Part shown: positions 2,724 to 32,992 of the stretch, one piece after another | Layout of the letters: every line of letters begins with the position of its first letter | Numbering within the stretch: position 1 is the first letter of the stretch | Assembly (NCBI GenBank): GCA_902530635.1 | Contig: CACABC010000001.1 | Span: 66,582 to 130,581 of the forward strand | Length of the DNA: 64,000 bases | Direction of reading: 5' to 3' | Source of the DNA: an uncultured Pelagibacteraceae bacterium | GTDB lineage: Bacteria; Pseudomonadota; Alphaproteobacteria; Pelagibacterales; Pelagibacteraceae | The notes under the pieces: model-generated | What the model saw: only the letters and a program-made list of their open reading frames with translations | The model's database searches: none | What the model was told of the DNA's origin: nothing | Program-made: the position numbers and the translations under genes

Positions 2724-3377
2724 CTATATATTTAGCTTTTTATCTATTATTTTTTTAACTTTTAAAAAGCTCCCTTTTATAGATAAGTTGGTAGTATTTA
2801 TCAAGGTAGAATCCTTTGTTTTTTTAAGCTTAGAATAACGTCTAGATCGATCTTCCAAGTCCCTACGTTTTAAATTTTTAAGAATCTTTGAATATGTAAC
2901 TTTTTTACCAAGTTTTTTTAGTTCTTTAAATCTTCTCTTTGCTCTTTCCGTCACGCTTGCTGTTACATAAAACTTGAAATCTGCATCCTTTACAATCTTA
3001 GAATTAATATCCCTACCATCTAAAATTGAACCATTAAATTTTTTAGGTGGTCTATAAGCTAAATCTTTTTGAAATTTTACCACTAATTTTCTTACTCTTA
3101 AATCTTTCGCAATTTGTGATGCTATATAAGCCACATCATCTGTCAGTAAATTTTTGTTATTTAATTTTTTAAGGTTAATTTTCTTACTTATTTTTTTAAG
3201 AAATTTTATTTTATCTAGAGGTTTTTTCTCAATAATTTGTTTGGCCATGTACCTATAAATTTTTCCAGTGTCGCAATATAGCAAATTATAATTTTTTGCT
3301 AACATTTTTGATATAGTTCCAGCACCTGCAGCACTAGGAGAGTCAATGCCTATCTTAATTTTTTTTTTTAATTTCAA
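2724..3377 (-). CDS. cmk: cytidylate kinase (atypical P-loop)
   Basis: 217 aa. Cmk motifs CDTGKIYRY, LDGRDI, TASVTERAKRR. The P-loop reads SPSAAGAGT instead of GPxGxGKGT. Confidence 0.8.
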   Translation of the reverse strand: MKLKKKIKIGIDSPSAAGAGTISKMLAKNYNLLYCDTGKIYRYMAKQIIEKKPLDKIKFLKKISKKINLKKLNNKNLLTDDVAYIASQIAKDLRVRKLVVKFQKDLAYRPPKKFNGSILDGRDINSKIVKDADFKFYVTASVTERAKRRFKELKKLGKKVTYSKILKNLKRRDLEDRSRRYSKLKKTKDSTLINTTNLSIKGSFLKVKKIIDKKLNI

Positions 3378-8763: not shown

Positions 8764-10074
8764 ATGAAAAACATGCGAAAAATTTTAGCTGCACTTTTAA
8801 TAACTTTATTTGTTAGCTCAAGTGCATATGCTAAAGTTGAAATACAATGGTGGCATGCATTCGGTGGACGTTTAGGTGAACTTCTAAATGAACAAGTCGA
8901 AAAGTTTAATGCAAGCCAAAACAAGTACACAGTTGTACATACTAGAAAAGGTAACTACTCAGAAACTCTTAATGCTGGAATAGCTGCATTCAGAGCTGGA
9001 CAACATCCAAATATATTAATGGTGTTCGAGGTCGGTACTGCCAGTTTGATGGCAGCTAAAGGAGCTTATGTTCCTATGTACCAACTTATGAAAGACGCTG
9101 GTCAAAAATTTAATCCAAAAGGATTCGTGTCGGCGGTAAGTGGATACTATACGACTACAGATGGCAAAATGTTATCTATGCCATATAACTCTTCAACACC
9201 TGTTCTTTGGGTTAATAAAGATTTAATGAAAAAAGCAGGTTTAGATCCAGAAATGGATTTAAGCACATGGAAAAGAGTTGGAAACGCACTTGATGCTGCT
9301 AAGGCAAAAGGTATTGGTATGCCTTTTTGTACTTGTTGGCACAGTTGGGTCCACCTTGAGAATTTTTCAGCTTATCACAATATACCATTCGCGACTAAAG
9401 CTAATGGATTTGGTGGTTTAGATACTGAATTAACTTTCAATAGTCCAGTGCATATCAAACACATCCAAACTTTAGGTAAATGGGCTCAAGAAGGTAAATT
9501 TACTTACATGGGAAGAAGAAACGAAGCAGGTAAAAATTTCAGAGCTGGTGAATGTATGTTAATGACAGAATCATCTGCAGGTTATGCTGGAATTAAAAAA
9601 GCTGCCAAGTTCGAGTTTGGTATCAGACACTTACCTTACTACGGCGGAACAAAGGCACCTCAGAACACTATAATCGGAGGTTCATCTTTATGGGCTCTTT
9701 CAGGAAAATCTGCTGAAGAGAACAAAGGTACTGCTGCATTTTTAGCTTTCCTATCAGGAACTGATATTCAAGCTAAATGGCACCAAGATACTGGTTATCT
9801 AGGTGTTACAACGGCTGCCGCTAAAAAAACTAAAAGTTCAGGTTTCTACAAAAAAAATCCTGGAACTGATTTAGCTGGAGTACAGATGATGAGAAATAAA
9901 GTTACTCAAAACTCTAAAGGCTTACGTCTTGGATCTTTTGATCAGATAAGAGGAATTATCGATGAAGAGATGGAAGGAGTTTACAGTGGTAAAAAAACTG
10001 CTCAAGTAGCTTTAGATAGCGCTGTAAGAAGAGGAAACGTTCTTTTAAGAAGATTTGAAAGAGCAAACAAATAA
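8764..10074 (+). CDS. ugpB: sn-glycerol-3-phosphate ABC transporter substrate-binding protein
   Basis: Signal peptide MKNMRKILAALLITLFVSSSAYA. Family 1 SBP followed by ugpAEC. I prefer the ATG at 8764, preceded by GGGGGA, over the ORF-track start at 8737. Confidence 0.85.
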   Translation: MKNMRKILAALLITLFVSSSAYAKVEIQWWHAFGGRLGELLNEQVEKFNASQNKYTVVHTRKGNYSETLNAGIAAFRAGQHPNILMVFEVGTASLMAAKGAYVPMYQLMKDAGQKFNPKGFVSAVSGYYTTTDGKMLSMPYNSSTPVLWVNKDLMKKAGLDPEMDLSTWKRVGNALDAAKAKGIGMPFCTCWHSWVHLENFSAYHNIPFATKANGFGGLDTELTFNSPVHIKHIQTLGKWAQEGKFTYMGRRNEAGKNFRAGECMLMTESSAGYAGIKKAAKFEFGIRHLPYYGGTKAPQNTIIGGSSLWALSGKSAEENKGTAAFLAFLSGTDIQAKWHQDTGYLGVTTAAAKKTKSSGFYKKNPGTDLAGVQMMRNKVTQNSKGLRLGSFDQIRGIIDEEMEGVYSGKKTAQVALDSAVRRGNVLLRRFERANK

Positions 10075-10085
10075 ATCATTTTAAT

Positions 10086-10108
10086 ACTAGGGGCCTAAAA
10101 AGCCCCTG
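10086..10108 (+). terminator. GC-rich hairpin after ugpB (intra-operon attenuator/terminator)
   Basis: CTAGGGGC-ctaaaaa-GCCCCTGG, an 8-bp stem including one G-U pair, followed by T-rich tataatttat. Lies between the SBP and permease genes. Confidence 0.5.
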
Positions 10109-10127
10109 GTATAATTTATAAAATCAA

Positions 10128-26517: not shown

Positions 26518-27627
26518 ATGAGAAATTATCTAGATTTTGAAAAAGAAATAAAAACATTAGAACAAGACCTTGATGGGCTGAAAAATCCATTTGATAAAGA
26601 TGGAATTTCTGAAGTTGATACGGTAAAAATTAAAAAAGTTCAAAATGAAATAAACGACAAATTAAATCTCACATATTCTAATCTAAATAGTTGGCAAAAA
26701 ACACAAGTAGCTAGACACGAGGATAGACCAAGAGCAAATTTTTACATTAATAAAATTTTTTCTGACTTTACTCTACTATCAGGAGATAGACTATTTGGTG
26801 ATGACAAATCTATAATTGCAGGTTTTGCGGTGATAGAAGGAAAATCTGTTTTAGTTCTAGGTCAAGAAAAAGGTGAGGACCTAAATTCACGGTTAGAAAG
26901 AAATTTTGGAATGATGAAACCGGAAGGTTATAGAAAATGTATACGTCTTATGAAACTTGCCGACCGTTTTAAAATTCCAGTAATTTCTTTTATAGATACA
27001 CCCGGGGCTTATCCAGGAATAGGTGCTGAACAAAGAGGACAGGCAATTGCAATTGCAAACTCTATAGAGTGTTGCATGTCTTTGAAGGTTCCTAATATAT
27101 CTATTATAATTGGAGAAGGTGGATCTGGAGGAGCAATAGCATTAGCTTCATCAAACAAAGTAATTATGTTGGAGCACTCAATATATTCAGTCATATCACC
27201 CGAAGGATGTGCATCTATTCTTTGGAGAGACCCTAGTAAATCATTGGAGGCTGCAGAGGCTATGAAATTAACAGCAAGTGAATTATTAAAAATAGGTATT
27301 ATAGATGAAGTAATTAATGAGCCGCTTGGTGGCGCGCACAGAGATGGTGAAAAAATAGCTTCTGAAATTAAAAAATCTATTATTAAAAATTTACAAGATT
27401 TTGAAAATTTATCAGGAGACGAAATATTTGAACAGAGAAAACTTAAATTCCTAAAAATAGGAAGAGACCAAGGTTTTAGGAAAGCATCTGGAAAAACAAC
27501 TTCGAGCTTGGGTTACACTGAACCTAGCTTTAATAAGATTGTTAGGCTTTATGTAAACAAAAAAAACATTTTTTTAGTATCTATGGGTGCCCTAATATTA
27601 GCCGGTATTATCTATATATTAGTGTAA
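26518..27627 (+). CDS. accA: acetyl-CoA carboxylase carboxyltransferase subunit alpha with C-terminal TM extension
   Basis: 369 aa. FIDTPGAYPG and GEGGSGGA motifs. About 50 extra C-terminal residues end in the hydrophobic helix IFLVSMGALILAGIIYILV. Confidence 0.9.
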   Translation: MRNYLDFEKEIKTLEQDLDGLKNPFDKDGISEVDTVKIKKVQNEINDKLNLTYSNLNSWQKTQVARHEDRPRANFYINKIFSDFTLLSGDRLFGDDKSIIAGFAVIEGKSVLVLGQEKGEDLNSRLERNFGMMKPEGYRKCIRLMKLADRFKIPVISFIDTPGAYPGIGAEQRGQAIAIANSIECCMSLKVPNISIIIGEGGSGGAIALASSNKVIMLEHSIYSVISPEGCASILWRDPSKSLEAAEAMKLTASELLKIGIIDEVINEPLGGAHRDGEKIASEIKKSIIKNLQDFENLSGDEIFEQRKLKFLKIGRDQGFRKASGKTTSSLGYTEPSFNKIVRLYVNKKNIFLVSMGALILAGIIYILV

Positions 27628-27770
27628 CAAATAGGTAGTTTTTTCAAATTTTTTTATAGAAACTTGATCATTCACTTGACATTTAATCTCTAAACGGTTT
27701 AAAGAGCCATATTAGTAAATTTGAACTATTTCAATTTACTGATTTAAAGTTAATAAATAAGGAAGAACAA

Positions 27771-27980
27771 ATGAGTCTAAAAGGAAAAGTAAAGTGGTTC
27801 AATGGAACTAAAGGTTATGGTTTTATTGAAAGAGAAGATAAGGAAAAGGACGTTTTCGTTCATTCTTCAGCAGTAAGAGCAGCTGGTTTAAAATATTTAA
27901 ACGAAGGTGATGAGCTTACTTTTGAAGTAGAGAACGGTGAAAAAGGACCTGCCGCGGTAAATCTACAGAAAACATCTTAA
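27771..27980 (+). CDS. cold-shock protein (CspA family)
   Basis: 69 aa. [12 protein letters not shown] (RNP1) and VFVHSS (RNP2). AAGGAAG ribosome-binding site upstream. Confidence 0.9.
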
Positions 27981-28004
27981 ATCTTATTACCAGCAAACAA
28001 ATAA

Positions 28005-28040
28005 TTGGGACAAAGACTAAGATTTAGATTTTTGTCCCAA
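28005..28040 (+). terminator. hairpin downstream of csp
   Basis: TTGGGACAAA-N16-TTTGTCCCAA, a perfect 10-bp inverted repeat 25 nt after the stop. No strong U-tract. Confidence 0.45.
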
Positions 28041-28086
28041 TAATCTAGGGTTGCTATTAATTTTTAATTTGTTAAAAGAACTACAA

Positions 28087-28161
28087 ATGTTTATTAAAAT
28101 TAACATTGTTAAGTCACACTCACACTCTCATAGAGTGCACGCTAGGCTATTGCTTAGCTAA
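28087..28161 (+). promoter_or_regulatory. candidate His-rich leader peptide ORF (MFIKINIVKSHSHSHRVHARLLLS) with overlapping hairpins
   Basis: Hand-translated ATG..TAA ORF. It has 4 His codons (CAC, CAC, CAT, CAC) within 9 codons. Hairpins CACTCT-cat-AGAGTG (28123-28137) and GCTAGG-ctattg-CTTAGC (28141-28158). Located 56 nt upstream of tRNA-His/hisS/hisZ/hisG. Confidence 0.3.
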
Positions 28162-28216
28162 ATCACTACATATTTAAAATACAAATTTATAAACAATTAA
28201 TATAAAAAGGAGTTAT

Positions 28217-28293
28217 GCAGCAGTAGCTCAGTTGGTTAGAGCACTAGTTTGTGGAACTAGGGGTCGGTGGTTCGAATCCACCCTGCTGTACCA
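28217..28293 (+). tRNA. tRNA-His (anticodon GUG), CCA encoded
   Basis: Cloverleaf read by hand: acceptor GCAGCAG/CUGCUGU, D arm GCUC-AGUUGGUUA-GAGC, anticodon arm CUAGU-UUGUGGA-ACUAG, T arm GGUGG-UUCGAAU-CCACC, then A73-CCA. Confidence 0.95.
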
Positions 28294-28297
28294 AAAA

Positions 28298-29632
28298 ATG
28301 GTAAAAGATAAAAAAACAAAACCTTCTAAGGAATTACCATTAGGTTTTGTAGATAGACAAGAAAAAGAATTATTAATCCGTGATTTTGTAATTTCTAATA
28401 TTAAAGAAGTTATGATTAAATACGGCTTTCGATATCTCGAAACACCAAGCTTCGAGTATACGGATAGTATTGGAAAATTTTTACCTGACAAGGAAAGACC
28501 TGATGCTGGAGTATTTTCTTTTAAAGATGAAAATAAATGGATGTCACTTCGTTATGATCTTACCGCTCCTTTAGCGAGATATGTTGCAAAAAACTATCTT
28601 GAAATATCAAAACCATTCAAACGTTACCAGTTAGGTTCTGTTTGGAGAAATGAGAAACCTGGACCAGGAAGATTTAGAGAATTTTTACAATTTGATGCTG
28701 ACTACGTTGGAACAAACAATTTACAAGCAGATGCTGAACTTTGTGTATTAATTTCTGAGATATTAGAAAAATGTGGTTTAGATAAAAAAGATTATACTGT
28801 AAAAATTTCTTCTAGAAAATTAACAGATAAATTATTCGAAAAGTTGAAAATTACATCGAAAGATCAAATCTCTACTGCACTCCGAGCCCTAGACAAAATT
28901 GATAGACTTGGCTGGGAGGAGGCAAAAAAACTTCTCGGAGAGGGCAGAAAAGATAAATCAGGAGATTATACAAAGGGAGCAGGACTTAGCATCGACCAGA
29001 TCAAAACAATCGAGTCTACCTTGCTAGGAAAAATTCCTGACAGTGAAGATGTCTTAGAAATTCTAAAAATATTTGAGGCTTACAATTTTAAAAATTATAA
29101 ATTTGATCCATCTGTTATAAGAGGGCTGGAATATTATACTGGACCTATTTTTGAGGTTAATTTAAATTTTCAAGTAAAAAACTCAAAAGGACAGAACATT
29201 CAATTTGGATCAATAGGTGGAGGAGGAAGATATGATAATCTTGTTAGTAACTTTGGAAATTTAGATTGTCCCGCAACCGGAATATCAATTGGTCTAGACA
29301 GACTTGTATTTGCTTTAATGCAGAAAAAAGATTTTAAAATAAAGTCTACACGACCAATTATTATATGTGTTTTTGATAAAGACAAAACTAAACAATATGT
29401 AGATATACTAAAAAAACTTAGAGCCTCGAATATCAGTTCTGAGATTTACCCAGGAGAGGGTAAGTTAAAAAAACAAATGGAATATGCGAATAAGATAGGT
29501 TCGCCGGCTGTTATTTTGTACGGGGATAACGAAATAAAATCAGGAAAAGCAACTTTAAAAAATTTAGAAAGCGGGAATGAGAGTTCAATTAAAATTGAGG
29601 AAATAGCAAATGAAATCAAAAAATTACTCTGA
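28298..29632 (+). CDS. hisS: histidine--tRNA ligase
   Basis: Class II aaRS motifs (FRYD-like LRYDLTAP, WRNEKPGPGRFREF, GGGGRYD). The ORF-track start at 28232 lies inside the tRNA. The first ATG after the tRNA is 28298 (MVKDKK...). Confidence 0.9.
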   Translation: MVKDKKTKPSKELPLGFVDRQEKELLIRDFVISNIKEVMIKYGFRYLETPSFEYTDSIGKFLPDKERPDAGVFSFKDENKWMSLRYDLTAPLARYVAKNYLEISKPFKRYQLGSVWRNEKPGPGRFREFLQFDADYVGTNNLQADAELCVLISEILEKCGLDKKDYTVKISSRKLTDKLFEKLKITSKDQISTALRALDKIDRLGWEEAKKLLGEGRKDKSGDYTKGAGLSIDQIKTIESTLLGKIPDSEDVLEILKIFEAYNFKNYKFDPSVIRGLEYYTGPIFEVNLNFQVKNSKGQNIQFGSIGGGGRYDNLVSNFGNLDCPATGISIGLDRLVFALMQKKDFKIKSTRPIIICVFDKDKTKQYVDILKKLRASNISSEIYPGEGKLKKQMEYANKIGSPAVILYGDNEIKSGKATLKNLESGNESSIKIEEIANEIKKLL

Positions 29633-30659
29633 AAATATAATAAAGGTATTTAAGAAAGACGGTTTTGTTTTATCAGAACCAGATGTGCTTTTAGATTCAG
29701 ATTATATTATTGAAAGATCCGGTGAAAATTTTAGGAAAATAATGCTTACTTTTGAGGATGATACTGGAAAGAGTATGTGTTTAAGGCCAGACTTGACAGT
29801 TGCTTCGTGCATTAAATATTTAAAAGATAATTCTAAAGCAAATTCAAAGATATATTATTCAGGTCAAGCTTATAGGAGGTCAAAAAGTTTAAACAAAGTT
29901 ATTAATTATCAACTAGGTTTGGAGATCTTTAACTCTAAAAATAAATCCATCGATGATTTAAAAGTTTTAAAAACAATAACCAGCTCAATTAATAAGGTAA
30001 AAATTAAAAATATATTAATTAAAGTTGGCGATGTAAGTTTATTCAAACAGTTAATCGAGTCTTTAAAAATACCAGAAAGATGGAGAATGAGATTAAAAAG
30101 ACACTTTTGGCGACCAAAATACTTTGAAGATTTACTTAATAGGCTCGAAACAAATTCTGATGTTGATCCTTCAACAGTTGAACTAGATAAGAAAAAGTTT
30201 TTTGAAATGAAGAATATTGATCAGAACAAAGAAGTTGCAAATAGAAAAGTTTCAGAGATCATATCGAGATTCGATAGAAAAATTAAAGACCCGAGATCAT
30301 TTAAAGAAAATAAAAAAACAGTAAAAATTATTAAAGATTTTTTAAAAATTAGTTGTCCGTTAGATAAATTAGAAAAAACATTAGATAATTTTATTAATAA
30401 AAATCAATTAAATAAAAGTGTTTTTAAAGATATATCAAGTTTGAAAAATTTATCTAAGTTAAATTCTAAAATTATTTTTTCTACTAATTTTGGTAGAGAT
30501 ATTGAATACTATTCAGGAGTGGTATTTGAGATATACAACTCTTCGAAAAAAGAGATAGCAAGAGGTGGAAGATATGATGGTTTATTAAAGAGTCTTGGAT
30601 CTAAAAAAAATATTTCAGCAGTAGGTGCTGCAATTAATTTAAATAATTTAGAGATATGA
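29610..30659 (+). CDS. hisZ: ATP phosphoribosyltransferase regulatory subunit (HisRS paralogue)
   Basis: 349 aa HisRS-like catalytic core without an anticodon-binding domain (LRPDLT, GGRYD). Directly precedes short-form hisG. Confidence 0.85.
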   Translation: MKSKNYSENIIKVFKKDGFVLSEPDVLLDSDYIIERSGENFRKIMLTFEDDTGKSMCLRPDLTVASCIKYLKDNSKANSKIYYSGQAYRRSKSLNKVINYQLGLEIFNSKNKSIDDLKVLKTITSSINKVKIKNILIKVGDVSLFKQLIESLKIPERWRMRLKRHFWRPKYFEDLLNRLETNSDVDPSTVELDKKKFFEMKNIDQNKEVANRKVSEIISRFDRKIKDPRSFKENKKTVKIIKDFLKISCPLDKLEKTLDNFINKNQLNKSVFKDISSLKNLSKLNSKIIFSTNFGRDIEYYSGVVFEIYNSSKKEIARGGRYDGLLKSLGSKKNISAVGAAINLNNLEI

Positions 30660-31333
30660 AAAATTTAATTACTATAGGGTTACCAAGCAAAGGCAGATTG
30701 AAAGATGGCTCAATAAACTTTCTTGTAAGAAATAATTTAAAACTAACCTCAAATGGAGGAGAGCGAAATTATTTTGCTGAGGTGAAAAATTTTCCTAATA
30801 TAAAAATCATTTATTTACATGCAAAAGAAATCATTCAAAGAATTGGTGATGGTACCCTTGATATAGGGATTTCAGGTTTAGATCTTTTAAATGAGTCAGC
30901 CACAAACCTTAAACAAAAAATCGAAGTTAAAAAAAAATTAGATTTTGGTTCAGCCAATGTTGTTGTTGCTATTCCTAATGATTGGATTGATGTGCAAACT
31001 GTTGCTGATTTGGAGGAGGTATCTTTCGATTTTAGAGATAAAAAAAATACCAGATTGAGAGTTGCAACTAAGTACCCAAATCTAACAAATAATTTTTTAG
31101 TTTCAAAAGGTGTTACTCAATACAAACTAGTTGCAAGCCTTGGTGCAACAGAAACTTATCCTTTTATTGGTTCCTCAGAAATTATTACTGATATCACTTC
31201 GACTGGAAAAACCTTAAGAGATAATAACCTTAGAATTTTGAAAGACGGTTTAATTTTAAAGTCACAAGCTTGTGTGTTGTACTCAAAAAAAAAGGCTGCA
31301 AAATTGCAGCCTTTTTTAAATTCTTTGAAGTGA
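30656..31333 (+). CDS. hisG: ATP phosphoribosyltransferase, short form
   Basis: 225 aa. LPSKGRL start and DITSTGKTL motif. Lacks the C-terminal regulatory domain, consistent with a HisZ partner. Confidence 0.9.
   Translation: MKNLITIGLPSKGRLKDGSINFLVRNNLKLTSNGGERNYFAEVKNFPNIKIIYLHAKEIIQRIGDGTLDIGISGLDLLNESATNLKQKIEVKKKLDFGSANVVVAIPNDWIDVQTVADLEEVSFDFRDKKNTRLRVATKYPNLTNNFLVSKGVTQYKLVASLGATETYPFIGSSEIITDITSTGKTLRDNNLRILKDGLILKSQACVLYSKKKAAKLQPFLNSLK
31285..31317. terminator. bidirectional rho-independent terminator (A9-GGCTGC-aaaatt-GCAGCC-T6)
   Basis: Perfect GC-rich stem flanked by A9 and T6. It lies 23-55 nt downstream of the groEL stop on the minus strand and inside the last 16 codons of hisG on the plus strand. 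Confidence 0.6.
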
Positions 31334-31339
31334 TTGGGA

Positions 31340-32992
<1,653 letters not shown>

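What the first reader, a model, noticed from the sequence alone, without database searches (positions are those of the whole stretch)
28087..28161. His-codon-rich mini-ORF upstream of tRNA-His/hisS/hisZ/hisG: candidate histidine-sensing leader
In the 236-nt spacer after csp there is an ORF encoding MFIKINIVKSHSHSHRVHARLLLS. Four of nine consecutive codons are His (CAC, CAC, CAT, CAC), against a typical frequency of roughly 2%. The His codons overlap a 6-bp hairpin (CACTCT-cat-AGAGTG, 28123-28137), and a second hairpin (28141-28158) covers the ORF end. A ribosome stalled for lack of His-tRNA would remodel these structures. The downstream genes are exactly those that determine charged tRNA-His supply: the tRNA itself, its synthetase, and the first enzyme of histidine biosynthesis with its regulatory subunit. 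Three caveats apply. I see no canonical terminator with a U-tract after the hairpins. The Shine-Dalgarno sequence is weak. A TTGTTA-N17-TATTAA promoter-like element (28067-28095) would start transcription downstream of the ATG.
Basis: partly seen in the sequence, partly recalled or inferred. Interest (0 to 1): 0.7.

Follow-up and report, generated by a model that had tools for sequence, protein, structure and literature searches.

The report
Histidine-codon leader ORF before tRNA-His/hisS
In the marine bacterium SAR11, a tiny conserved reading frame rich in histidine codons sits just ahead of the histidine tRNA, its charging enzyme and the first histidine-biosynthesis enzyme, and most likely lets the ribosome sense histidine shortage and adjust those genes.

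Summary
Alone it is weak evidence: 4-of-9 His windows occur five times in the window's six frames, against about 2.7 in shuffles.

Comparison makes it strong. In 78 SAR11 species-level genomes (HisRS 74-94% identical) the ORF is always present.
- No in-frame stop occurs in 79/79, against about 50/79 expected.
- Length changes are only multiples of three.
- The N-terminus is hypervariable, and each ORF keeps 2-4 clustered His codons (13% His against 1.6% in genes).
- It persists in two more distant lineages: HisRS 61% identical with a different upstream gene, and 49% identical with no tRNA in between (MLIIKHHHSHI).

A conserved -35/-10 promoter lies 34-36 nt upstream of the ATG.

The hairpin directly after the last His codon is universal. 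The stop codon falls before, inside or after it.

No canonical terminator, T-box or Rfam family was found.

Verdict: a real, apparently undescribed histidine-sensing leader ORF, a new variant of ribosome-mediated attenuation. Its output step is unresolved.

The parts
28006..28040 (+). Terminator-like hairpin closing the upstream csp unit. It marks the boundary and is not part of the leader.
   Evidence: Folds at -16.2 kcal/mol with z = -5.9. Present with different stem sequences in relatives. Has no U tract.
28051..28056 (+). -35 element of the leader promoter (TTGCTA; TTGAAA, TTGCAA or TTGCAT in relatives).
   Evidence: Conserved in register in all groups. The distance from the start of the -35 to the ATG is 34-36 nt in 78/79 sequences.
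28070..28078 (+). Extended -10 element (TGtTAAAAG). It ends 8 nt before the ATG.
   Evidence: Conserved as (TGn)TAAAAG, TAAATA, TACATA, TACTTT or TATTTA, followed by 5-8 variable nt and then the ATG. That this implies a leaderless start is inference.
28087..28161 (+). Leader ORF of 24 codons plus stop: MFIKINIVKSHSHSHRVHARLLLS*.
   Evidence: Open in 79/79 sequences. Indels occur only in multiples of 3. No frame-0 stops. Third codon positions vary most.
28117..28140 (+). His-codon cluster: CAC 28117, CAC 28123, CAT 28129, CAC 28138.
   Evidence: Every leader has 2-4 His codons (49 have 3, 24 have 4, 6 have 2). His is 13.1% of leader codons against 1.55% in window genes. The positions shift between lineages, but the cluster persists.
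28123..28137 (+). Hairpin 1, overlapping His codons 13 and 15.
   Evidence: Folds at -5.0 kcal/mol. Covaries as CACUCU/AGAGUG, CAUUCU/AGAAUG and CACACU/AGUGUG. Group B has a different stem, GCAAAA/UUUUGC, at the same place. Weak or absent in group C and in more distant lineages.
28141..28158 (+). Hairpin 2. It starts at the base after the last His codon and ends at the base before the stop codon. It is the universal RNA element of the leader.
   Evidence: Folds at -9.4 kcal/mol. 100% of cells are paired in 40 distinct sequences. Group C has GCUGGC-N5-GCUAGC with a variable loop. The 49% lineage has a 10-11 bp hairpin that covaries between members.
28162..28216 (+). AT-rich, almost G-free spacer between the leader and the tRNA. 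It contains the invariant TAnnAT motif at 28198-28203.
   Evidence: T28198, A28199, A28202 and T28203 are invariant in 79/79 sequences. No conserved -35 lies upstream of the motif (read from the same alignment). Its function is unresolved.
28217..28293 (+). tRNA-His (anticodon GTG), the first gene downstream of the leader.
   Evidence: ARAGORN and Rfam at 71.9 bits. The position is conserved in 76 of 80 loci by BLAST.
28298..31333 (+). hisS (28298-29632), hisZ (29610-30659) and hisG (30656-31333), the presumed regulated operon.
   Evidence: ORFs. Pfam tRNA-synt_His and HisG are assigned to the orthologues. hisS-hisZ-hisG synteny holds in every lineage examined.

Best explanation
This is a ribosome-mediated histidine sensor, a leader ORF that belongs to the (tRNA-His-)hisS-hisZ-hisG unit of SAR11 and its relatives.

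A sigma-70-type promoter starts transcription at or within about 2 nt of the AUG, so the ORF is translated as a leaderless or nearly leaderless message. About ten codons of arbitrary sequence bring the ribosome to a cluster of 2-4 His codons. The last of these abuts a conserved hairpin (hairpin 2).

When charged tRNA-His is scarce, the ribosome stalls on these codons. Its footprint covers the 5' arm of hairpin 2, and it melts hairpin 1. When histidine is plentiful, the ribosome runs to the stop codon and leaves, and the hairpins can form.

I propose that folded hairpin 2 is the 'off' signal. It would act as a non-canonical terminator, pause or processing signal that limits RNA continuing into tRNA-His, hisS, hisZ and hisG. 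A stalled ribosome would then give read-through.

What is shown:
- the ORF and its frame are under selection;
- the His cluster, the promoter geometry and hairpin 2 are conserved;
- the element is linked to hisS-hisZ-hisG across lineages.

What is inferred:
- that the ORF is translated;
- the position of the transcription start;
- that ribosomes stall there;
- the sign and the molecular nature of the output step.
For: (1) Coding signature without peptide conservation.
- No in-frame stops in 79/79 sequences; the other two frames have stops in 77 and 79.
- In the variable part, 0/79 have a frame-0 stop against about 50/79 expected.
- ORF length varies only by whole codons.
- Mismatch fractions by codon position are 0.34, 0.42 and 0.47.
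- The N-terminus is hypervariable, with 78 distinct sequences.

(2) The stop codon lies after hairpin 2 in most SAR11, inside its loop in L038, and before it in the 49% lineage. The C-terminal residues are therefore not selected as protein.

(3) The His cluster persists while its layout changes: HSHRMHA, KHHFAHA, HRHHFHA, HRYHPHARH, HHHSH, HHHYH. His is enriched 8.5-fold over window genes.

(4) The element stays with hisS-hisZ-hisG whatever lies upstream: csp, tRNA-Phe or a divergent MFS gene. It does so with or without tRNA-His in between.

(5) Promoter geometry is conserved, with the -35 element 34-36 nt from the ATG in SAR11 and 36 nt in the 49% lineage.

(6) The last His codon is 0 nt from hairpin 2 in SAR11 and the 61% lineage, and 6-7 nt from it in the 49% lineage. 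Given the known reach of a ribosome (about 12-15 nt 3' of the A site, established knowledge), a stalled ribosome must prevent the hairpin from forming.

(7) The V/M amino-acid change (GUG/AUG) compensates the synonymous CAC/CAU change in hairpin 1. RNA pairing is therefore preserved at the expense of the peptide.
Against: - No lineage has a GC-rich hairpin followed by a U tract. The scan found 0 terminator-like sites in 27500-28500.
- Hairpin 2 is only 7 bp (-9.4 kcal/mol). It is followed by UAAAUCAC in the window.
- I found no mutually exclusive terminator/antiterminator pairing.
- A ribosome translating through hairpin 2 in histidine-replete cells would also melt it, so the timing needed for termination is unexplained.
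- The first downstream gene is a tRNA, probably the only tRNA-His gene. It should need steady expression.
- The invariant TAnnAT at 28198-28203 could be a separate promoter that bypasses the leader.
- Some species keep only two His codons.
- There are no expression data of any kind.
Confidence: 0.65

Rival explanations
1. Same sensor, different output. The His-stalled ribosome acts not through hairpin 2 as a terminator but in one of three other ways. It could block Rho loading or translocation. It could control formation of a long-range helix between the 5' end (start-codon region) and the 9 nt after hairpin 2 (stop-codon region). Or it could change the processing or stability of the precursor that carries the tRNA and hisS.
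For: - A 5'-3' helix is present and differs coherently between groups: UGAUUAUAA/UUAUAAUCA, AUGAUUAAG/UUUAAUCAU, AUGAUUAA/UUAAUCAU. The own-partner mean longest helix is 7.56, against 6.54 (maximum 6.85) in 200 partner permutations.
- One pair switches between A-U (22) and U-A (18).
- The 49% lineage has a conserved C-rich GACCCCCUAUAU motif after the hairpin.
- The spacer in the window is nearly G-free.
- Two other terminator-like hairpins in the window also lack U tracts.
Against: - The long-range helix is weak or absent in the window's own clade: ATGTTx paired with AAATCAC gives 4-6 AU/GU pairs.
- AT-rich sequence gives a high background of chance helices.
- The SAR11 spacer is C-poor, which makes it a poor Rho site.
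- A ribosome stalled upstream leaves the downstream RNA just as exposed as a released one does.
Confidence: 0.2
2. The ORF encodes a free-standing small protein, for example a His-rich metal-binding or regulatory micropeptide. It would merely be syntenic with hisS.
For: The ORF is under selection to stay open. Within SAR11 the motif HSHR[MV]HA[RK]LLLS is conserved at the amino-acid level.
Against: - That motif coincides with the two RNA hairpins, and its nucleotides are conserved even at synonymous sites.
- The stop-codon position varies: before, within or after hairpin 2.
- The peptide shrinks to 11 residues in the 49% lineage.
- The N-terminus is hypervariable.
- Only the His codons and the frame are common to all lineages.
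- Linkage to hisS-hisZ-hisG survives changes of the upstream neighbour.
Confidence: 0.07
3. The region is a non-coding 5' leader or processing signal of the tRNA-His precursor, or promoter-proximal structure. The ORF would be a by-product.
For: The hairpins and the spacer motifs are conserved at the nucleotide level. The element lies directly upstream of a tRNA in SAR11.
Against: - Frame conservation, whole-codon indels and the absence of stops in a hypervariable AT-rich stretch are not expected of non-coding RNA.
- The His-rich ORF is present upstream of hisS in the lineage where tRNA-His lies elsewhere.
Confidence: 0.06
4. A chance ORF in an AT-rich spacer.
For: Taken alone, the His richness is not unusual: 5 such windows in the 64 kb against 2.7 expected.
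Against: The comparative results.
Confidence: 0.01

Closest known systems
his operon leader peptide attenuator of Escherichia coli and Salmonella (hisL; Rfam His_leader RF00514)
   Same: A short ORF with clustered His codons lies upstream of histidine genes. The ribosome's speed over those codons reports the supply of charged tRNA-His. RNA hairpins overlap the ORF.
   Different: - There is no run of seven consecutive His codons. SAR11 has 2-4 interspersed ones; the distant lineage has HHH.H.
- There is no terminator/antiterminator pair and no U-tract terminator.
- There is no Rfam match.
- The start is leaderless rather than led by a Shine-Dalgarno sequence.
- The genes downstream are a tRNA, the synthetase and HisZ/HisG, not the whole his operon.
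Histidine leader peptides predicted upstream of a hisS paralogue and hisZ in Bacillus (Naville and Gautheret 2010, PMC2965389)
   Same: A His-codon leader ORF is placed in front of HisRS-family genes (hisS-like, hisZ). It was likewise predicted by comparative genomics.
   Different: Those were found because they precede recognisable premature terminators. They are in Firmicutes, and the paper reports no sequence similarity between its Firmicute and proteobacterial leaders. No tRNA gene is involved there.
Polycysteine leaderless short ORFs of mycobacteria ('Cys ribulon', Canestrari et al., bioRxiv 10.1101/834739)
   Same: A leaderless sensory ORF is the first cistron of an operon. A ribosome stalled on codons for the limiting amino acid prevents an inhibitory RNA structure. 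No classical terminator is required.
   Different: [quoted passage not shown] Here the next gene is a tRNA, so that read-out cannot apply directly. The amino acid and the phylum also differ.
pyrBI leader of E. coli (from my own knowledge, not checked here)
   Same: The leader ORF runs through the regulatory hairpin. The ribosome acts by physically occupying the hairpin rather than by choosing between alternative pairings.
   Different: pyrBI senses UTP through RNA polymerase pausing, and it has a canonical terminator.
T-box riboswitches on hisS and his genes of Firmicutes
   Same: The physiological input is the same (charging state of tRNA-His), and so is the class of regulated genes.
   Different: A T-box binds uncharged tRNA directly and needs no translation. 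No T-box features and no Rfam match are present here.

Membership tests
Amino-acid leader-peptide attenuators (ribosome-mediated attenuation) | A short ORF upstream of, and on the same strand as, genes for the cognate amino acid, enriched in that amino acid's codons | tested here: met
   The 24-codon ORF has 4 His codons and lies upstream of tRNA-His, hisS, hisZ and hisG. His makes up 13.1% of codons in 79 leaders against 1.55% in genes.
Amino-acid leader-peptide attenuators (ribosome-mediated attenuation) | The ORF and its regulatory codons are conserved in relatives while the rest of the peptide is free to vary | tested here: met
   (79/79 SAR11 sequences). (lineages with 61% and 49% HisRS identity).
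Amino-acid leader-peptide attenuators (ribosome-mediated attenuation) | Mutually exclusive antiterminator and terminator structures, the terminator being a GC-rich hairpin followed by a U tract | tested here: not met
   - No terminator-like site was found in 27500-28500.
- The folds show two independent hairpins and no alternative pairing.
- The sequence after hairpin 2 is not U-rich in most groups.
- The other terminator-like hairpins in the window also lack U tracts, so the criterion may not suit this organism.
Amino-acid leader-peptide attenuators (ribosome-mediated attenuation) | Downstream expression rises when the amino acid or its charged tRNA is limiting, and this depends on the regulatory codons | not testable with these tools
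   Needs cultures or in vitro coupled transcription-translation.
Rfam His_leader (RF00514) | A match to the covariance model | tested here: not met
   No hit at E <= 10 with permissive filters in the window, L081 or L084.
T-box riboswitch | Stem I with a specifier loop, the T-box sequence and an antiterminator; a match to the Rfam T-box model | tested here: not met
   No Rfam hit. The window leader contains no UGG to pair with the tRNA's NCCA end (read).
Leaderless sensory short ORFs ('ribulon' type, mycobacteria) | Transcription starts at the initiation codon | tested here: inconclusive
   A conserved -35/-10 places the ATG 6-9 nt after the -10 hexamer in SAR11. In L081 the ATG is 13 nt after it, which implies a short 5' UTR. 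There is no experimental mapping of the transcription start.
Leaderless sensory short ORFs ('ribulon' type, mycobacteria) | [quoted passage not shown] | tested here: not met
   In the window the next gene is a tRNA, 55 nt downstream. hisS starts 5 nt after the tRNA and has no Shine-Dalgarno sequence.

The most novel reading that the evidence does not exclude
SAR11 puts its tRNA-His gene (probably its only one), the matching synthetase and the HisZ/HisG gate of histidine synthesis under one leaderless, ribosome-read histidine sensor. That sensor would work without a classical terminator. For example, the stalled ribosome could prevent a small hairpin and a 5'-3' clamp helix from closing the leader RNA. 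This would be a tRNA gene whose own transcription or maturation is governed by decoding of its cognate codons.
Probability: 0.3. Interest if true: 0.75.

Novelty: new variant of a known kind. Interest (0 to 1): 0.6.

Why it matters
SAR11 is the most abundant group of marine bacteria. It has very few transcription factors, and most of its known gene control is by riboswitches.

A conserved ribosome-read histidine sensor would add a second class of RNA-level control to this streamlined genome. It would also link three levels of histidine supply in one transcript: the tRNA, its charging and the committed biosynthetic step.

It also shows a blind spot. The systematic screen for structured RNAs in Pelagibacter excluded intergenic regions that contain tRNAs (PMC2704228). 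Terminator-based attenuator searches would miss it because it has no U-tract terminator.

If the output step proves unconventional, it would be a tractable example of attenuation in an AT-rich organism whose terminators do not follow the E. coli rules.

Tried and rejected
- **Rfam.** Permissive scans of the spacer and of two distant leaders found only the tRNA, and no His_leader or T-box.
Rejected, because its -10 lies in hypervariable codons and is not conserved.
- **Whole-leader MAFFT plus RNAalifold**. The alignment put hairpin 2 out of register and gave a meaningless 5-pair consensus. I replaced it with anchored, ungapped segments.
- **Classical 1:2 / 2:3 / 3:4 alternative pairings, and pairing of the leader with the 5' half of the tRNA.** Folds of 28087-28216 and 28087-28300 show nothing convincing, and the tRNA folds independently.
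- **A proximal tRNA promoter at the invariant TAnnAT.** No conserved -35 exists at 16-18 nt in any group (read). Left open.
- **The first homologous-protein search with the window's HisRS.** It returned only relatives at least 91% identical. Distant lineages had to be reached through the representative library.
- **The distant lineage.** I considered pairing the conserved CCCCC motif with GGG upstream of the ORF. The GGG lies inside the putative promoter spacer and does not covary.
- **Literature searches.** Seven searches found no prior description.

Full report
**What is there**

The window is a 29.7% G+C genome segment. Its closest relatives are all Pelagibacteraceae (SAR11) genomes.

Around the finding the + strand carries these features:
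- accA;
- a cold-shock gene, csp (27771-27980);
- a strong hairpin (28006-28040);
- the mini-ORF (28087-28161);
- tRNA-His(GTG) (28217-28293);
- hisS (28298-29632), whose ATG lies 5 nt after the tRNA's CCA;
- hisZ and hisG;
- groEL, which converges from the other strand.

Hairpin 1 folds at -5.0 kcal/mol and hairpin 2 at -9.4 kcal/mol.

**Is it more than chance?**

Not from one sequence. Stop-free 9-codon windows with at least 4 His codons occur at five places in the six frames of this window. Shuffles give a mean of 2.7 and a maximum of 6. One of the five is simply the antisense of the GGM repeat at the end of groEL. The case therefore rests on comparison.

**Comparison within SAR11**

A scan of one genome per species returned 80 loci with HisRS 74-94% identical to the window. 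The order csp - tRNA-His - hisS is conserved. I extracted the spacer from 78 of these loci.

Every one has an ATG-initiated ORF of 19-26 codons ending at the same place. The peptides fall into groups:
- xHSHR[V/M]HA[R/K]LLLS(L), the window's type;
- AKHHFAHARLLLS;
- HRHHFHAGCTLAI.

The evidence for a selected reading frame is as follows.
- The N-terminal 8-11 codons are hypervariable, with 78 distinct sequences.
- The distance from the ATG to the last His codon is 48, 51, 54 or 57 nt, a multiple of three in 79/79.
- Frame 0 has no stop in any sequence. The other two frames have stops in 77 and 79 sequences.
- Restricting the test to the hypervariable part gives 0/79 with a frame-0 stop. The other frames give 58 and 47. 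Composition-matched shuffles give about 50 (minimum 34 of 2000). This part falls into about 10 sequence clusters, so the result does not rest on one inherited sequence.
- Mismatches increase from codon position 1 to 3: 0.34, 0.42, 0.47.

His accounts for 13.1% of leader codons against 1.55% in the window's genes. Each leader has 2-4 His codons.

This is the signature of a translated regulatory ORF: the frame, the length and the regulatory codons are kept, and the peptide is not.

Aligning on the ATG shows a conserved -35 element (TTGAAA, TTGCAA, TTGCAT; TTGCTA at 28051-56 in the window). After 16-17 nt comes a -10 element, often with an upstream TG (TGtTAAAAG at 28070-78). Then follow 5-8 variable bases and the ATG. 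The start of the -35 lies 34-36 nt from the ATG in 78/79 sequences.

With the usual 6-9 nt between the -10 and the start site (established knowledge), transcription should begin at or 1-2 nt before the A of the ATG. The ORF would then be leaderless, which explains the missing Shine-Dalgarno sequence.

Its second hexamer lies in hypervariable codons 2-3.

**RNA structure**

Folding 72 distinct 54-nt cores predicts both hairpins in nearly all sequences of the first two groups. In the third group only hairpin 2 is predicted.

On an ungapped alignment of 40 distinct sequences, hairpin 1 has one clean compensatory pair: U-A in 28, C-G in 12, none unpaired. Further variants are CACACU/AGUGUG and a shifted ACACU/AGUGU. 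The covariation score is 0.116 against 0.075 in shuffles (0 of 500 reach it), and paired cells fall to 15-45% when partners are slid.

The compensating change turns Val into Met, so pairing is kept at the expense of the peptide. The second group has an unrelated stem (GCAAAA/UUUUGC) at the same place.

Hairpin 2 is 100% paired but nearly invariant, changing only between G-U and A-U. The third group has GCUGGC-N5-GCUAGC with a freely varying loop. In L038 that loop contains a stop codon.

I also found a possible long-range helix between the first 7-10 nt of the transcript and the 9 nt after hairpin 2, which include the stop codon. It differs coherently between groups. It is weak in the window's own clade, so I treat it as a lead only.

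**More distant relatives**

HisRS representatives at 61% and 49% identity were traced back to contigs.

*The 61% lineage.* The upstream genes are hisD-infA-maf-tRNA-Phe, not csp. Between tRNA-Phe and tRNA-His lie a promoter, an ORF and the same hairpin 2 (GCUAGGC-AUGU-GCUUAGC). The ORF reads MKKIYISTHRYHPHARHVLS* or MKKIYISTLRHQIHARHLLG*.

*The 49% lineage.* It shares the hisS-hisZ-hisG synteny. In two of the three contigs first examined, groEL converges downstream as in the window. tRNA-His is elsewhere. The hisS upstream region carries an 11-codon ORF, for example MLIIKHHHSHI*, MFIIKHHCLHI*, MITLLHHHYHI* or MITKLIHHYHI*. Eleven distinct upstream sequences were examined. In ten the stop codon sits immediately before a 10-11 bp hairpin that covaries between members; in L090 a mutated stop extends the ORF three codons into the hairpin. 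A conserved TTGACW lies 36 nt upstream of the ATG.

The common denominator over this whole range is a promoter at a fixed distance, an ATG, a few arbitrary codons, a His cluster, a hairpin that begins 0-7 nt after the last His codon, and hisS-hisZ-hisG downstream. The stop codon can lie before, inside or after the hairpin. The hairpin is therefore an RNA element, and the peptide's tail is irrelevant.

**How it most likely works**

A ribosome with a His codon in its A site protects about 12-15 nt downstream (established knowledge). In every lineage that covers the 5' arm of the hairpin. [quoted passage not shown] is therefore a robust structural inference.

My best guess is that the folded hairpin limits continuation of the RNA into tRNA-His, hisS, hisZ and hisG, and that stalling relieves this.

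The weak point is the output step.
- No lineage has a U-tract terminator, and I found no alternative pairing.
- A fast ribosome would also melt hairpin 2 on its way to the stop codon.
- The only two other strong terminator-like hairpins in the window (after csp and after the gene ending at 10074) also lack U tracts. The E. coli terminator rule may therefore not apply in this organism, though two cases is a small sample.

Rho, the 5'-3' helix or RNA processing are viable alternatives. An invariant TAnnAT 13 nt upstream of the tRNA (28198-28203) could be a second promoter that supplies basal tRNA-His expression. It has no conserved -35.

**Comparison with what is known**

The logic is that of the classical his leader (hisL), but three defining features fail. 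There is no match to the Rfam model, no terminator/antiterminator pair, and no run of seven His codons.

- His leader peptides have been predicted upstream of a hisS paralogue and hisZ in bacilli (PMC2965389).
- Leaderless amino-acid-sensing ORFs are documented for cysteine in mycobacteria, where they unmask a ribosome-binding site (bioRxiv 10.1101/834739). That mechanism cannot apply directly here, because the next gene is a tRNA.
- The systematic screen for Pelagibacter RNA motifs excluded intergenic regions containing tRNAs (PMC2704228).
- Seven full-text searches found no description of this element.

**Verdict**

The element is real and conserved, and almost certainly translated. It is very probably a histidine sensor for the tRNA-His/hisS/hisZ/hisG unit. 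It is a new variant of a known kind. The molecular read-out is open.

Noticed in passing
window 28293-28300; L001-L080 about 2996-3001; L081 2543-2552: The hisS ATG lies only 4-6 nt after the CCA end of tRNA-His and has no Shine-Dalgarno sequence. This spacing is conserved in SAR11. hisS must therefore be translated either from a nearly leaderless RNA made by tRNA 3' processing, or next to a folded tRNA. HisRS binding to the tRNA embedded in its own mRNA could in principle autoregulate hisS; that idea is speculation.
   Followed up: partly
L081 2501-3985; protein hits: Many public gene calls extend HisRS at the N-terminus into the tRNA-His gene, giving 454, 460, 466 or 494 aa instead of 444 or 478. 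In L081 the called start at 2501 lies inside the tRNA (2467-2543).
   Followed up: partly
window 28198-28203 (TAATAT), 13 nt upstream of the tRNA 5' end: T1, A2, A5 and T6 of this hexamer are invariant in 79/79 SAR11 spacers. A TATTAT motif sits at the equivalent place in the 61% lineage. The pattern looks like a -10 element, but no conserved -35 lies upstream. It could be a proximal tRNA promoter, a pause element or a processing signal.
   Followed up: partly
window 28087-28096 with about 28160-28176; clearer in L042-L080, L026-L040 and L016/L023/L025: The start-codon region is complementary to the 7-10 nt that follow hairpin 2 and contain the stop codon (for example AUGAUUAAG/UUUAAUCAU). The pairing differs coherently between groups. 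It would enclose the whole ORF and sequester the AUG. It is weak in the window's own clade.
   Followed up: partly
window 28216-28293: The tRNA-His has no encoded G-1: the base before G1 is T. It has G1-U72 and an A73 discriminator before the encoded CCA. From my own knowledge (not checked here), this matches the atypical tRNA-His identity set described for a group of alphaproteobacteria.
   Followed up: no
L013, L015, L016, L018, L020, L021, L023-L025: These loci carry two tandem csp copies upstream of the leader. There the leader's -35 and -10 elements lie in the two arms of an 8-bp inverted repeat (UGCAAAGU...ACUUUGCA). This may double as the csp terminator or as an operator.
   Followed up: no
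window 31331-31345: hisG and the convergent groEL end 6 nt apart, with no room for a terminator. The antisense of groEL's C-terminal GGM repeat creates a spurious His-rich frame (HSHSTHSSH at 31343), one of the chance hits in the His-window scan.
   Followed up: yes
L084 1935-1950; L086-L098 equivalent positions: In the 49% lineage a conserved C-rich motif (GACCCCCUAUAUAAA) follows the leader hairpin. A second conserved hairpin (GUAUCA...UGAUAC) precedes hisS. Their roles are unknown; they could be a Rho site or take part in control of hisS translation.
   Followed up: partly
window 10088-10116 and 28006-28044: The two strongest terminator-like hairpins in the window are followed by mixed A/U sequence rather than a U tract. 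Transcription termination signals in this genome may therefore be non-canonical.
   Followed up: partly
L081 2228-2543 compared with L084 423-580: tRNA-Phe and tRNA-His are 5 nt apart in the 49% lineage. In the 61% lineage they are separated by the 163-nt leader cassette. In the window's lineage tRNA-Phe is replaced by csp. The tRNA-His gene and the leader have therefore been rearranged relative to each other during Pelagibacterales evolution.
   Followed up: partly
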